64,000 nt of DNA from an uncultured Planctomycetia bacterium (GTDB lineage: Bacteria; Omnitrophota; Gorgyraeia; JABMRG01; JAFGKX01). The stretch covers positions 22,749-86,748 of the forward strand of contig CAZMYR010000003.1 of NCBI GenBank assembly GCA_964570585.1, read 5' to 3'. Shown here piece by piece: positions 57,346-60,373 of this stretch. The position numbers and the translations under genes are program-made. Position 1 is the stretch's first letter; each line of letters starts with the position of its first letter. Under the pieces are notes generated by a model. That model had not been told where the DNA came from and did no database searches. It saw nothing but the letters and a program-made list of their open reading frames with translations.

Positions 57346-57670
57346 CAGTTAGGAAAATTACTTTCTGTTCTGTGTATGAAATTAATTACAGGTGTGAAGT
57401 ATTTCAATATAAAACTAATTATAATAGCGGAGCACCAGTATTGTCAAGCAAAAAGGGATGGTCTTTTGTTGCACTGCGGAGAATGAGTTCTTTAACTTCT
57501 GATAGCCCAACAAATTGGGCAACTAACCATTCTTGTCCACGGTGATGTAATAGCAATGCACAGGGGAAGTTTCTACATAAATCAGCCAGGCCACTGGAGT
57601 ACTTATCTGTAATATCCTTGAGCCTGATGGTATATTCTGCAAGCTCTTTAATATTGCTGTGTTTTTGTTA

Positions 57671-57748
57671 TTCATCCCGCACCTTCCTTCATTCCCGCTT
57701 ACCTTCTTAATATTGCAAATTTGAATACAAAGAAGGTGCGGGATTCAT
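57671..57748. repeat. palindromic element family D, copy 2; right arm overlaps the stop codon of ORF 57745-58035
   Basis: read directly. Confidence 0.8.
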
Positions 57749-58035
57749 ATATTCATCTCCACTTTCTTTCTTAATCTATGTAAATCCTCCACTATCTTAT
57801 CAATGTTGACTACGCGTTTTATCTTAGGGAGCCCAAAGGCGACCATCCTCACCCTCGCCGGGCCTATCACACTTTTATTTATTGTGTCTTTATCAATCGC
57901 TGTTTGTTTTTGCCAGGCTTGTGTAATCACCGGAGTTACTGCACTAAAACCAGCAGCAAGCGCTGGTAACGCCTTTCCGTTTGACAAAACTTGAGATAAA
58001 ATAATTATAACGATGATAAATTTAATCAGTCTCAT
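57745..58035 (-). CDS. small secreted hypothetical protein (signal peptide plus about 70 aa)
   Basis: N-terminal hydrophobic signal MRLIKFIIVIIILSQVLS. Confidence 0.4.
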   Translation of the reverse strand: MRLIKFIIVIIILSQVLSNGKALPALAAGFSAVTPVITQAWQKQTAIDKDTINKSVIGPARVRMVAFGLPKIKRVVNIDKIVEDLHRLRKKVEMNI

Positions 58036-58366
58036 TTTTTGCTCCTTTCTTTAATTTCTTTAATTCTTCTGCAAGGTTAGGAAGCGCTTTTTTTAAAAGT
58101 TCACCTATTCTTTGTTCTAACTCTTCTTGCGAGTGCACCAAATTGCCTGATATCTCCATTTTCCTAACCGCCTCTACTATCGCCTGTATTATTTCTGTTC
58201 GAGAAAGTTTTTTTCCGGTTGAAAACAAGGCATCTTTGCTAATTTTGTCTATAAAATCTAACTGCTCCCTTGCAAGAAATGCAATAACCCTGCCTACATG
58301 TTTAGCATTATGGCTAATCTGTGCAAACCGAGAGGGGCGTTTATGATTTATGTGTGTGTTTGTCAT
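58022..58366 (-). CDS. hypothetical protein (114 aa from ATG at 58366 behind GGAGG; His-rich N-terminus, possible HTH)
   Basis: ORF with good RBS; no recognised domain. Confidence 0.45.
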   Translation of the reverse strand: MTNTHINHKRPSRFAQISHNAKHVGRVIAFLAREQLDFIDKISKDALFSTGKKLSRTEIIQAIVEAVRKMEISGNLVHSQEELEQRIGELLKKALPNLAEELKKLKKGAKNETD

Positions 58367-58388
58367 TTTAGATACCTCCAATAAAAAA

Positions 58389-58422
58389 AAGCCCTATTCT
58401 TACCTAAGAAAGAATAGGGCTT
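58389..58422 (-). terminator. intrinsic terminator: 13-bp perfect stem AAGCCCTATTCTT/AAGAATAGGGCTT plus U8, placed inside the 5' leader of ORF 58022-58366
   Basis: read directly; upstream segment 58436-58445 can pair with the 5' arm as an antiterminator. Confidence 0.6.
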
Positions 58423-58553
58423 TTAAACTTCCGCTCTATTCTTTCGGCAGCCCGACTCTCCCAGACTCGTGGGACTCGTAGCTTTGCGTCCCATTCTTAC
58501 GAATGGTTTGCCTTTATCGAGAATTTCCTTTAAAAGAGCTTTTTGTTTCTACA

Positions 58554-58585
58554 TTAAGTATGCCCAATATTTTTAAAAAAGTCAA
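58554..58585 (-). promoter_or_regulatory. putative promoter TTGACT-17 nt-CATACT for the leader and small ORFs
   Basis: good -35, weak -10. Confidence 0.3.
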
Positions 58586-58677
58586 GAGGTGAGAAGATAT
58601 TTTTTTATTTTTGTACTTTTGTCACTTTTTACATTTGTGAATCGCCAACGAAAGTCCCATACCAATTCTCGCAGAGA

Positions 58678-58906
58678 CGCATCGTTAGGTTTTGTGTGCT
58701 TTGCCTCCGCTTGCCGCTTGCTCAGGTCTGTGGCAATTCTCGCAGGGACGCAAAAAATCCCCAGCGTGGATTTTTTGCTCTGTCCTCGGCCTCGCTCTTT
58801 TTGTCCCGAAATTTCGGGATAAGAAACCATGCCCGCTCGGCCTGCGCAAGCCCTGCTCGAATTGCCACAGGACCTTCGCTTTTGTTGACAGTCGCTACGG
58901 CAAAGC
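58678..58906. repeat. GC-rich element with nested perfect inverted repeats (outer 18 bp GGTTTTGTGTGCTTTGCC; inner 12 bp; internal 11-bp hairpin); non-coding
   Basis: read directly; overlapping ORFs in several frames on both strands. Confidence 0.6.
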
Positions 58907-59212
58907 ACACAAAACCTTTAGACTCCGCCCTGTTCAAATTGTTATAGGAGCTTCTGCTTTAAATCCAAACAAAATATTATCCTACAAAAGTAAAAACTAA
59001 AGGGGTGGACGCAGAGAGGAAAATAGGCGCTCGGGGTATCGTGGAGCGAGACATTAGAAATTTTTTACCAAATGTCTTTTTAGGATTTATGGCGAGTGAG
59101 ACGACGGAACTGACTCGCTACTTTCTAGCTAAAGAATTCCGTCAAGCGAACGAGCCATAAGTTCAAAAAGACGGCAAAAAATTTCAGTCTCGCGAAACAA
59201 TACCCTGAGCGC

Positions 59213-60373
59213 CTATTTCCCCATGCCGATATTCTGGGCTCGCTGGAAGACTTTTCCTTCGGTTTGGATAGATGGGGCGATTATCAGCTTTGTTTTCTGC
59301 ATTTCTTTTATATTGCGGGCGCCGACATTGCCCATAGAAGTGGTGAGTGCACCCATTAAATTCTGAGTTCCATCATCCAATCTTGCAGGGCCGAATAATA
59401 TCTCTTTTAATGTGCCGGTCGTTCCCACCTTTATTCTGGTGCCACGTGGCAGGTTTGCGTGAGGAGTAGCCATACCCCAGTGATAACCTCCGCCAGGGGC
59501 TTCTTTTGCTCTGGCAAAAGCAGAACCTACCATAACAGCATCGGCACCGGAGGCAAATGCCTTGCATATATCCCCACCGGTACTCATTCCACCGTCTGTT
59601 ATAATGGGGATGTATTTTTTCTTCTTCTTAAAATAATTGTTTCTTGCTGCAACACAATCGACAGTAGCAGTCACTTGCGGAAGACCAATTCCTAAAACTC
59701 CTCTTGTGGTGCAGGCAGCGCCAGGGCCGATTCCTACCAAAAGGCCGTTTATTCCTGTTTCCATAAGCTCAAGCGTAGTTTTGTAGCTGCAGGTATTTCC
59801 GACAATTACAGGGATTTTCATGTTTTGGCAGAATTTTTTAAAATTTAGCACCTTGTATTCTTTGGATATATGTTTTACGGTTGTAACTGTTGACTGGACC
59901 ACAAATATATCACATCCGGCATCCTGGGCTATTTTGCCGAACCTCTCCGCTCTTTGCGGTATGGCACTTACTACTGCCGGAACTCCTTTAGATTTAATTT
60001 CCTTTATCCTTTTTACTATTAACTTCTCTTTTATTGGCTTCGTATATATGCTTTGGACTAGTTCAGTCGCTTCCTGAGGCGCGGCTTTAGCTATTTTCCT
60101 CAAAACAATATCTGGATTTTCATATCTTGTCTGGATGCCCTCTAAATTTAATACAGCAAAACCTCCGAGTTTGCCAAAGGCAATTGCAAATCGGACATTA
60201 ACCACTCCGTCCATCGCTGCTGCGATTATAGGGACATGAAATTTGTGTTTGTCTATCTTCCAGGATGTATCAACTTCATTTGGGTTTATGGTTACATCAC
60301 CGGGAACAAGTGCTACTTCATCAAAGCCATAACAACGTCTTGCGGTTCTATCTTTTCCTATATATAATCCCAT
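59213..60373 (-). CDS. IMP dehydrogenase/GMP reductase family protein lacking the CBS pair
   Basis: 386 aa TIM barrel with conserved IMPDH motifs. Confidence 0.8.
   Translation of the reverse strand: MGLYIGKDRTARRCYGFDEVALVPGDVTINPNEVDTSWKIDKHKFHVPIIAAAMDGVVNVRFAIAFGKLGGFAVLNLEGIQTRYENPDIVLRKIAKAAPQEATELVQSIYTKPIKEKLIVKRIKEIKSKGVPAVVSAIPQRAERFGKIAQDAGCDIFVVQSTVTTVKHISKEYKVLNFKKFCQNMKIPVIVGNTCSYKTTLELMETGINGLLVGIGPGAACTTRGVLGIGLPQVTATVDCVAARNNYFKKKKKYIPIITDGGMSTGGDICKAFASGADAVMVGSAFARAKEAPGGGYHWGMATPHANLPRGTRIKVGTTGTLKEILFGPARLDDGTQNLMGALTTSMGNVGARNIKEMQKTKLIIAPSIQTEGKVFQRAQNIGMGK

What the first reader, a model, noticed from the sequence alone, without database searches (positions are those of the whole stretch)
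58022..58585. Attenuator-like leader (terminator/antiterminator) in front of a two-gene unit of small hypothetical proteins
A TTGACT-17-CATACT promoter candidate at 58554-58585 would give a 120-nt leader ending in a perfect 13-bp terminator hairpin plus U8 (58389-58422) only 8 nt before the GGAGG of ORF 58022-58366. Upstream, GAAAGAAUAG (58436-58445) is exactly complementary to CUAUUCUUUC, which is the 5' arm of the terminator plus two loop bases. This is a textbook mutually exclusive antiterminator. The leader also holds hairpins CCAUUC-GUAAG-GAAUGG and GGGAC...GUCCC, and ACGAGUC occurs three times. It could be a riboswitch or protein-mediated attenuator controlling a 114-aa cytoplasmic protein and an overlapping 96-aa secreted protein.
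Basis: seen in the sequence. Interest (0 to 1): 0.55.

Follow-up and report, generated by a model that had tools for sequence, protein, structure and literature searches.

The report
c-di-GMP riboswitch controlling small-protein operon
The flagged leader is a cyclic-di-GMP class I riboswitch, a well-known kind of RNA sensor, that most likely switches off a three-gene operon of small unknown proteins in an Omnitrophota bacterium when c-di-GMP is high; the instance is ordinary, but the main regulated protein belongs to an uncharacterised family that is also found fused to c-di-GMP-binding PilZ domains.

Summary
Window 58585-58383 (minus strand) holds a promoter-like TTGACT-17-CATACT, a complete c-di-GMP-I (GEMM-I) aptamer (Rfam 72.1 bits, E 4e-15) and a 15-bp terminator followed by U8, just upstream of ORF-A. 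Rfam's best-hit label "c-di-GMP-I-GGC" is misleading. The ligand-pocket nucleotides are the canonical G/A/C (G58512, A58485, C58447), and none of 74 related aptamers has the variant G. The aptamer fold covaries strongly (72 distinct sequences, 93.7% paired, 26 of 29 pairs compensatory). About 100 of 117 loci encoding ORF-A homologues (Candidatus Omnitrophota) carry the aptamer upstream, and 73 of 74 have a terminator. The P1 3' strand (58445-58436) is complementary to the terminator's 5' arm, and folding of the nascent transcript predicts this antiterminator. This implies an OFF switch. The direction is inferred, because the antiterminator pairing has no covariation support. The regulated unit is three genes, not two, because a conserved 50-aa ORF-C follows. 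ORF-A's domain has no known fold or family, but 25 of 38 longer homologues fuse it to PilZ and 3 to a receiver domain, so it is probably a c-di-GMP pathway output module. Verdict: new member of a known kind, modest interest.

The parts
58580..58585 (-). -35-like hexamer TTGACT
   Evidence: TTGACTTTT is invariant in 8 related loci.
58557..58562 (-). -10-like hexamer CATACT (17-nt spacer). The transcription start is inferred near 58550.
   Evidence: GCATACTT is invariant in 8 related loci with constant spacing. The start site is inferred, not measured.
58532..58539 (-). Conserved 5'-leader box GCUCUUUU, role unknown
   Evidence: AGCTCTTT is conserved in 7 of 8 aligned leaders. In the window's MFE it pairs with AGAGC at 58434-58430, but that partner is not conserved.
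58436..58526 (-). c-di-GMP-I (GEMM-I) aptamer with extended P1. Rfam core is 58442-58521.
   Evidence: Rfam 72.1 bits, E 4e-15, full length. Own model R1 gives 80.1 bits. Covariation is shown.
58518..58524 (-). P1 5' strand AUUCUCG
   Evidence: Pairs with 58446-58438, with A58443 and A58442 bulged. P1 helices are 79-81% paired with compensatory changes in 6 of 7 pairs.
58512..58512 (-). G20-equivalent pocket nucleotide (G)
   Evidence: A3 column 21: G in 72 of 74, A in 2 of 74.
58491..58506 (-). P2 hairpin CCAUUC-GUAA-GAAUGG (GYRA-type tetraloop, receptor-less architecture)
   Evidence: GUAA in 44 of 74. Weinberg 2007 (PMC1950547) states that a GYRA loop goes with absence of the receptor.
58485..58485 (-). 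A47-equivalent pocket nucleotide (A, where the GGC-variant model has G)
   Evidence: Mismatch to model position 37 in the alignment. A3 column 50 is A in 74 of 74.
58449..58483 (-). P3 stem-loop (short, no tetraloop receptor)
   Evidence: P3 is most similar to the type-2 aptamers of distant relatives.
58447..58447 (-). C92-equivalent pocket nucleotide (C)
   Evidence: A3 column 157 is C in 74 of 74.
58436..58446 (-). P1 3' strand, which is also the antiterminator strand (CGAAAGAAUAG)
   Evidence: Shared between P1 and the pairing with 58417-58408.
58387..58424 (-). Intrinsic terminator hairpin (15 bp, 8-nt loop). The 5' arm and loop bases 58417-58408 form the antiterminator partner.
   Evidence: Hairpin energy is -20.5 kcal/mol. 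The terminator helix is 95% paired with covariation in 16 relatives.
58383..58390 (-). U8 tract, the predicted termination site
58375..58379 (-). Ribosome-binding site GGAGG of ORF-A
   Evidence: Read from the sequence, 8 nt before the ATG at 58366.
58022..58366 (-). ORF-A, 114 aa, uncharacterised domain family and the core regulated gene
   Evidence: Homologues follow the aptamer in 68 of 71 non-redundant loci. The family has 233 representatives. PilZ or REC fusions are shown.
57745..58035 (-). ORF-B, 96 aa, hydrophobic N-terminus, overlaps the ORF-A stop by 14 nt
   Evidence: Conserved at 33-85% identity in the nearer clade. No family hits. The signal-peptide or membrane-anchor reading is by inspection only.
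57523..57675 (-). ORF-C, 50 aa, a conserved third gene of the unit
   Evidence: tblastn identity of 57-87% at the same position in about 20 loci. No family hits.

Best explanation
This is a transcriptional OFF riboswitch of the c-di-GMP-I (GEMM-I) class in a Candidatus Omnitrophota genome. Transcription starts at a dedicated sigma-70-type promoter (58585-58557). The nascent RNA folds into a c-di-GMP-I aptamer (58526-58436) with the canonical ligand pocket (G58512, A58485 and C58447, equivalent to Vc2 G20, A47 and C92) and a receptor-less GUAA-tetraloop architecture. When c-di-GMP is bound, P1 (58524-58518 with 58446-58438) is locked. The downstream hairpin 58424-58387 then forms, and RNA polymerase terminates in the U8 tract before ORF-A. 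When c-di-GMP is low, the P1 3' strand (58445-58436) instead pairs with the terminator's 5' arm (58417-58408). This prevents the terminator and allows readthrough into ORF-A, ORF-B and ORF-C. Shown here: aptamer identity, fold and pocket nucleotides, terminator presence and conservation, promoter conservation, and the gene association. Inferred: the ligand (from pocket identity), the OFF direction (from complementarity and folding), and the start site.
For: Rfam full-length hit, E 4e-15. The GEMM-I structure has 93.7% of cells paired against 30-44% for slid controls, and 26 of 29 pairs have compensatory changes in 72 distinct relatives. The pocket triplet is GAC in 72 of 74 relatives. The aptamer lies upstream on the same strand in about 100 of 117 ORF-A loci. 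A terminator is present in 73 of 74 leaders, and its helix covaries. The window's antiterminator duplex is -16.8 kcal/mol, z -3.8. The MFE of the transcript truncated before the terminator's 3' arm forms the antiterminator with P2 and P3 intact and P1 open. The same logic, with the terminator 5' arm pairing with aptamer sequence, holds in 53 of 64 leaders. The promoter hexamers are invariant. Ten of 11 relatives in the first Rfam scan score best as RF01051.
Against: There is no experimental binding or termination data. The antiterminator register shows no covariation beyond what a purine run opposite a pyrimidine run gives (72.5% paired observed, 73.2% in column shuffles). It is conserved only in the nearest subclade, and overall only 21% of leaders reach p<=0.05. 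The full-length MFE always contains the terminator, so the switch must be kinetic. Rfam's top-scoring family is a variant model (RF03167) whose ligand I could not check in the literature held here. The Omnitrophota promoter consensus is not established.
Confidence: 0.8

Rival explanations
1. The same aptamer and terminator act as an ON switch, so that c-di-GMP binding prevents termination and induces the operon.
For: Both ON and OFF c-di-GMP-I riboswitches are known, and many GEMM RNAs have terminators that compete with the aptamer (Weinberg 2007, PMC1950547). The antiterminator pairing is not proven by covariation.
Against: Here the terminator does not overlap the aptamer. Its 5' arm is complementary to the P1 3' strand, which ligand binding sequesters. 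In 53 of 64 relatives the terminator 5' arm's alternative partner lies inside the aptamer, which gives OFF logic.
Confidence: 0.13
2. It is a member of the c-di-GMP-I-GGC variant class (Rfam RF03167) with altered, unknown ligand specificity, rather than a c-di-GMP sensor.
For: RF03167 is the best-scoring Rfam family for the window (72.1 bits against a gathering score of 59) and for 17 of 20 relatives.
Against: At the one pocket position where the GGC model has a conserved G (model position 37, after GACGC), the window has A (alignment). All 74 relatives have A there. Ten of 11 relatives score best as canonical RF01051, and one relative scores as 'UAU' without having that pocket. The label therefore reflects competition between clan models. 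That 'GGC' denotes positions 20, 47 and 92 rests on my own knowledge of the naming plus the model consensus. The defining paper was not available.
Confidence: 0.04
3. The hairpin plus U8 is simply the terminator of the upstream IMPDH-family gene, or a stand-alone terminator. The aptamer would be a decayed relic and regulation would be absent or protein-mediated.
For: The promoter scan alone is not above chance. No transcript data exist.
Against: The IMPDH-family gene ends about 790 nt upstream (59213), with other structured elements in between. The promoter blocks are invariant in 8 loci. The aptamer is full-length with an intact pocket, and it covaries. The aptamer, terminator and ORF-A module persists even where synteny differs (L012).
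Confidence: 0.03

Closest known systems
c-di-GMP-I riboswitch (GEMM-I, Rfam RF01051), e.g. Vibrio cholerae Vc2 and Bacillus Bc1
   Same: The architecture is the same: P1, P2 with a GNRA tetraloop, the AAA linker, and P3. The pocket nucleotides are the same (G20, A47, C92 equivalents). Like Bc1, it uses an intrinsic terminator as its expression platform and is predicted to repress (Bc1: PMC11218506).
   Different: The host phylum is Omnitrophota. The regulated genes are a family of small proteins with no known domain. The window's aptamer is the receptor-less GUAA form, while its closest relatives have the GAAA-plus-receptor form.
c-di-GMP-I-GGC variant (Rfam RF03167)
   Same: It is the best-scoring Rfam model, with a similar compact P3 shape.
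   Different: The window lacks the variant's defining G at the A47-equivalent position, as do all 74 relatives.
c-AMP-GMP (3'3'-cGAMP) riboswitch, the GEMM-Ib variant of c-di-GMP-I
   Same: The fold is the same. Two relatives upstream of ORF-A homologues (L062, L110) have A at the G20-equivalent position, which is the signature change reported for this class (PMC9481103; PMC7266159).
   Different: The window has G at that position, so it is not of this type.
PilZ-domain c-di-GMP receptors
   Same: They are functionally linked. The ORF-A domain is fused to PilZ in 25 of 38 longer homologues, so the same output domain is placed under c-di-GMP control at the protein level.
   Different: The window's ORF-A has no PilZ domain. 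Its c-di-GMP input is the RNA leader.

Membership tests
c-di-GMP-I riboswitch (RF01051 / GEMM-I) | Three-helix fold with a two-hairpin core closed by P1: P1, P2 with a GNRA tetraloop, and P3, joined by a conserved AAA linker | tested here: met
   Full-length covariance-model match. In the hand-drawn structure 93.7% of cells are paired and 26 of 29 pairs covary. The linker AAA is invariant (columns 50-52).
c-di-GMP-I riboswitch (RF01051 / GEMM-I) | Ligand-pocket nucleotides equivalent to Vc2 G20, A47 and C92 | tested here: met
   G58512, A58485 and C58447. The triplet is GAC in 72 of 74 relatives. The roles of these positions are taken from PMC5888326 and PMC11218506.
c-di-GMP-I riboswitch (RF01051 / GEMM-I) | Score at or above the family's Rfam gathering threshold | tested here: inconclusive
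   The window's RF01051 score is hidden by clan competition: one lower-scoring same-clan match was suppressed. Ten relatives score 42-78 bits against a gathering score of 35.
c-di-GMP-I riboswitch (RF01051 / GEMM-I) | Selective, high-affinity binding of c-di-GMP | not testable with these tools
   This needs in-line probing, ITC or a fluorescence assay.
c-di-GMP-I riboswitch (RF01051 / GEMM-I) | Cis-regulatory position in a 5' leader with an expression platform | tested here: met
   The order is promoter, aptamer, terminator, RBS. A terminator is present in 73 of 74 relatives.
c-di-GMP-I-GGC variant (RF03167) | G at the A47-equivalent pocket position (model position 37) | tested here: not met
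   The window has A (alignment), and G occurs in 0 of 74 relatives.
c-di-GMP-I-GGC variant (RF03167) | Score at or above the gathering threshold (59 bits) | tested here: met
   72.1 bits. The same is true of 17 of 20 relatives that lack the variant nucleotide, so this feature is not discriminating.
Ribbon-helix-helix DNA-binding proteins (considered for ORF-A) | Beta-alpha-alpha fold or profile similarity to RHH families | tested here: not met
   No Pfam RHH hit. Foldseek against the PDB gives a best E of 0.59. hhalign against CopG and Arc gives probabilities of 0.4% and 1.3%. The AF2 monomer shows an extended segment followed by two helices, which is compatible but not diagnostic.
PilZ domain (considered for ORF-A) | Match to PF07238 | tested here: not met
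   The window's ORF-A has no PilZ match. PilZ is a separate, fused domain in longer homologues.

The most novel reading that the evidence does not exclude
ORF-A defines a new output (effector) domain of c-di-GMP signalling that is largely restricted to Omnitrophota. Stand-alone copies are placed under c-di-GMP control by a riboswitch. Other copies are fused to PilZ, giving protein-level c-di-GMP input, or to a receiver domain, giving phosphorelay input. A few have both the riboswitch and PilZ. If the domain binds DNA or a cellular machine, the riboswitch would sit at the top of a regulatory cascade that governs lifestyle switching in these ultra-small, possibly host-dependent bacteria.
Probability: 0.4. 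Interest if true: 0.55.

Novelty: new member of a known kind. Interest (0 to 1): 0.32.

Why it matters
The RNA element belongs to a textbook riboswitch class, so its discovery here changes nothing fundamental. Three by-products have some value. First, the riboswitch assigns an uncharacterised and fairly widespread protein family (233 representative clusters) to the c-di-GMP regulon, and the PilZ and receiver-domain fusions support that link independently. This gives a concrete candidate effector to test in a phylum where c-di-GMP targets are essentially unknown. Second, best-hit assignment among Rfam's c-di-GMP-I clan models mislabels canonical aptamers as 'GGC' or 'UAU' variants, which matters for automated annotation and for surveys of variant riboswitches. 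Third, the family offers a natural series of one expression platform combined with either receptor-containing or receptor-less aptamer cores, and with large tolerated insertions. That series is useful for studying riboswitch modularity.

Full report
OBSERVATION. A sigma-70-like TTGACT-17-CATACT lies at 58585..58557. A hairpin at 58424..58387 has 15 pairs and an 8-nt loop and is followed by T8. GAAAGAAUAG (58445-58436) is exactly complementary to CUAUUCUUUC (58417-58408). The leader folds better than shuffles (z -3.35). Small corrections are needed. The P2 loop is GUAA. GGGAC/GUCCC is not a helix of the functional fold. ACGAGUC occurs twice, not three times.

IDENTITY. An Rfam scan of the whole window gives one cis-regulatory hit, a full-length match at 58442-58521 (-) to the c-di-GMP-I clan (72.1 bits, E 4e-15). 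The best-scoring family is the 'c-di-GMP-I-GGC' variant model (RF03167). In the printed alignment, the one pocket position where that model has a conserved G (after GACGC) is A in the window. This is the canonical A47 of Vc2 numbering, and the roles of G20, A47 and C92 are described in PMC5888326 and PMC11218506. I built a lineage-specific covariance model from 8 relatives with a hand-drawn GEMM-I structure and aligned 74 aptamers with it. The pocket triplet is G/A/C in 72 and A/A/C in 2, and G at position 47 occurs in none. Even so, Rfam labels 17 of 20 of these relatives 'GGC' and one 'UAU', while 10 of 11 others are labelled canonical RF01051. The variant label therefore comes from competition among related models and says nothing about the pocket. 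The fold itself is strongly supported. In 72 distinct sequences 93.7% of cells are paired, against 30-44% when partners are slid. Twenty-six of 29 pairs show compensatory changes, and no shuffle of 500 reaches the observed values. This includes the extended P1 (58524-58518 with 58446-58438, two bulged A's).

The window's aptamer has a GUAA tetraloop and a short P3 without a tetraloop receptor. This receptor-less form was already described for GEMM RNAs with GYRA loops (PMC1950547). It is the majority form in the wider family (44 of 74).

COMPARATIVE CONTEXT. ORF-A has homologues only in metagenome-assembled genomes. The named ones are Candidatus Omnitrophota, and a few are labelled Planctomycetia. 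One is a closed 1.14-Mb MAG, CP070655.1, at 90% identity. Synteny (TPR/peptidase-MA gene, IMPDH-family gene, gap, ORF-A, ORF-B) is conserved in the nearer clade. The aptamer lies upstream of the ORF-A homologue, on the same strand, in about 100 of 117 fetched loci. An ORF-A homologue is the first gene after the aptamer in 68 of 71 non-redundant loci. The promoter blocks TTGACTTTT and GCATACTT are invariant at fixed spacing in 8 loci whose spacers and flanks differ. This argues for a dedicated transcription start, and against the idea that the hairpin merely terminates the upstream gene.

EXPRESSION PLATFORM AND DIRECTION. Seventy-three of 74 leaders have a strong hairpin plus U tract after the aptamer. 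In 16 platforms of the window's type (CCCUAUU...AAUAGGG) the terminator helix is 95% paired and covaries. The window's P1 3' strand pairs with the terminator 5' arm at -16.8 kcal/mol (z -3.8), and the nearest relatives L016, L054, L057 and both L058 copies behave alike. I folded the transcript up to the terminator loop, which is the state when the decision is made. That fold keeps P2 and P3, opens P1 and forms this antiterminator. Once the 3' arm is added, the terminator wins. This is the classical kinetic OFF design, in which ligand-locked P1 withholds the antiterminator strand.

Two caveats apply. In the window's register the antiterminator is 72.5% paired across 16 relatives, against 42-59% when slid, but column shuffles give 73%. 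The signal is therefore a purine run facing a pyrimidine run and is not covariation. More distant relatives also use other partners. Generalising the decision-window fold, the terminator's 5' arm pairs with aptamer sequence in 53 of 64 leaders (the P1 3' strand in 13, the aptamer core in 40). This gives the same OFF logic through different pairings. I rate the OFF direction at about 0.7 to 0.75.

REGULATED GENES. ORF-A (114 aa, GGAGG 8 nt upstream) is followed by ORF-B (96 aa, overlapping by 14 nt, hydrophobic N-terminus). After a 69-nt gap comes ORF-C (50 aa, 57523-57675). None of the three proteins matches Pfam, NCBIfam or PADLOC. An exhaustive profile search finds 233 representative clusters with the ORF-A domain. 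Of 38 longer members, 25 carry a C-terminal PilZ domain and 3 an N-terminal receiver domain. Three loci that also have the riboswitch encode ORF-A-PilZ fusions. The same domain is thus put under c-di-GMP control in two independent ways, by RNA and by a fused receptor. In response regulators it occupies the position of the output domain. That makes it a probable output module of c-di-GMP signalling. What it does is unknown. The AF2 model is confident (pLDDT 83.8, above 90 over residues 30-70) and shows an extended segment, two helices and a long C-terminal helix. It has no significant structural or profile match. My ribbon-helix-helix idea failed direct comparison.

COMPARISON WITH KNOWN SYSTEMS AND NOVELTY. 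The element works like c-di-GMP-I riboswitches, and by every sequence-testable criterion it is one. It is not a GGC variant. The held literature has nothing on riboswitches in Omnitrophota. It is a new member of a known kind. Interest is modest for the RNA and somewhat higher for the gene family it points to.

SIDE OBSERVATIONS. The extra length of this intergenic region comes from two nested inverted-repeat elements (58650-58954, z -8.7, and 59018-59221). The first has its outer arms conserved in CP070655.1. The window and that close relative share 100% identical P1 strands and junctions, but P2 identity is only 62% and P3 only 26%, with a change from the receptor type to the receptor-less type. 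The aptamer interior was therefore remodelled or exchanged on a constant platform.

Noticed in passing
window 58650-58954: A nested inverted-repeat element of about 305 nt (56-nt outer arms at 71%, 20-nt inner arms at 90%, central palindrome) folds into one long hairpin (-147 kcal/mol, z -8.7). It lies between the IMPDH-family gene and the riboswitch promoter. Its outer arms are conserved in the closed MAG CP070655.1 (L016 920-1135) with a different centre. It is unique in the window and has no Rfam match. Whether it is an ncRNA, a MITE relic or a large terminator is unknown.
   Followed up: partly
window 59018-59221: A second inverted-repeat element (35-nt arms at 83%, with a nested 13-nt pair) overlaps the 3' end of the IMPDH-family gene. 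It is unique in the window.
   Followed up: partly
window 57523-57675 (-): A 50-aa ORF (ORF-C) that looks like noise is 57-87% identical in about 20 related loci, directly after ORF-A and ORF-B. It is a real third gene of the unit, with no known family.
   Followed up: yes
window 57676-57741 (-): A strong hairpin (-33.8 kcal/mol; CCCGCACCUUC pairs with GAAGGUGCGGG) between ORF-B and ORF-C buries ORF-C's ribosome-binding site. An internal decoy segment (AAGAAGGUAAGCGGG) could pair alternatively. It is not conserved in relatives, whose intergenic spacers carry other hairpin insertions or none.
   Followed up: partly
window 58449-58510 compared with L016 1275-1355: The window and its closest relative have 100% identical P1 strands, junctions and platform, but different aptamer interiors (P2 62% and P3 26% identity). 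The window has GUAA and no receptor, while L016 has GAAA with a CCUAA/UAAGG receptor and a P3 insert. This suggests exchange or remodelling of the aptamer core on a fixed platform.
   Followed up: partly
L062 1268-1367; L110 499-625: Two aptamers upstream of ORF-A homologues have A at the G20-equivalent position, which is the signature reported for c-AMP-GMP-sensing variants. The ligand may have switched within the same gene family.
   Followed up: no
L058 1259-1356 and 1991-2090: One locus has two c-di-GMP-I aptamers, one before the ORF-A homologue and one after ORF-C. Each has its own terminator of the same type.
   Followed up: no
L007 2745-2869; L013 606-730; L008 about 1320-1492; L005 2760-2918: Related aptamers tolerate large hairpin insertions in P3, in the J1/2 junction and in the J2/3 junction, and still score as full-length c-di-GMP-I.
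   Followed up: no
Rfam clan CL00126, loci: Seventeen of 20 aptamers with a canonical G/A/C pocket score best as 'c-di-GMP-I-GGC' and one as 'c-di-GMP-I-UAU'. Best-hit assignment within this clan is unreliable for this lineage.
   Followed up: yes
P0041, P0050, P0059 and others; L082 1450-2268, L036 1483-2118, L101 964-1557: The ORF-A domain is fused to PilZ (25 of 38 long homologues) or placed after a receiver domain (3 of 38). Three fusions also sit behind the riboswitch, giving two layers of c-di-GMP input.
   Followed up: yes
window 58488-58500 compared with 58391-58403 (-): The terminator's loop and 3' arm (GUAAGAAUAGGGC) is nearly a copy of the P2 loop and 3' strand (GUAAGAAUGGGAC). The terminator's 5' arm could therefore also invade P2, providing a second possible competitor pairing.
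   Followed up: no
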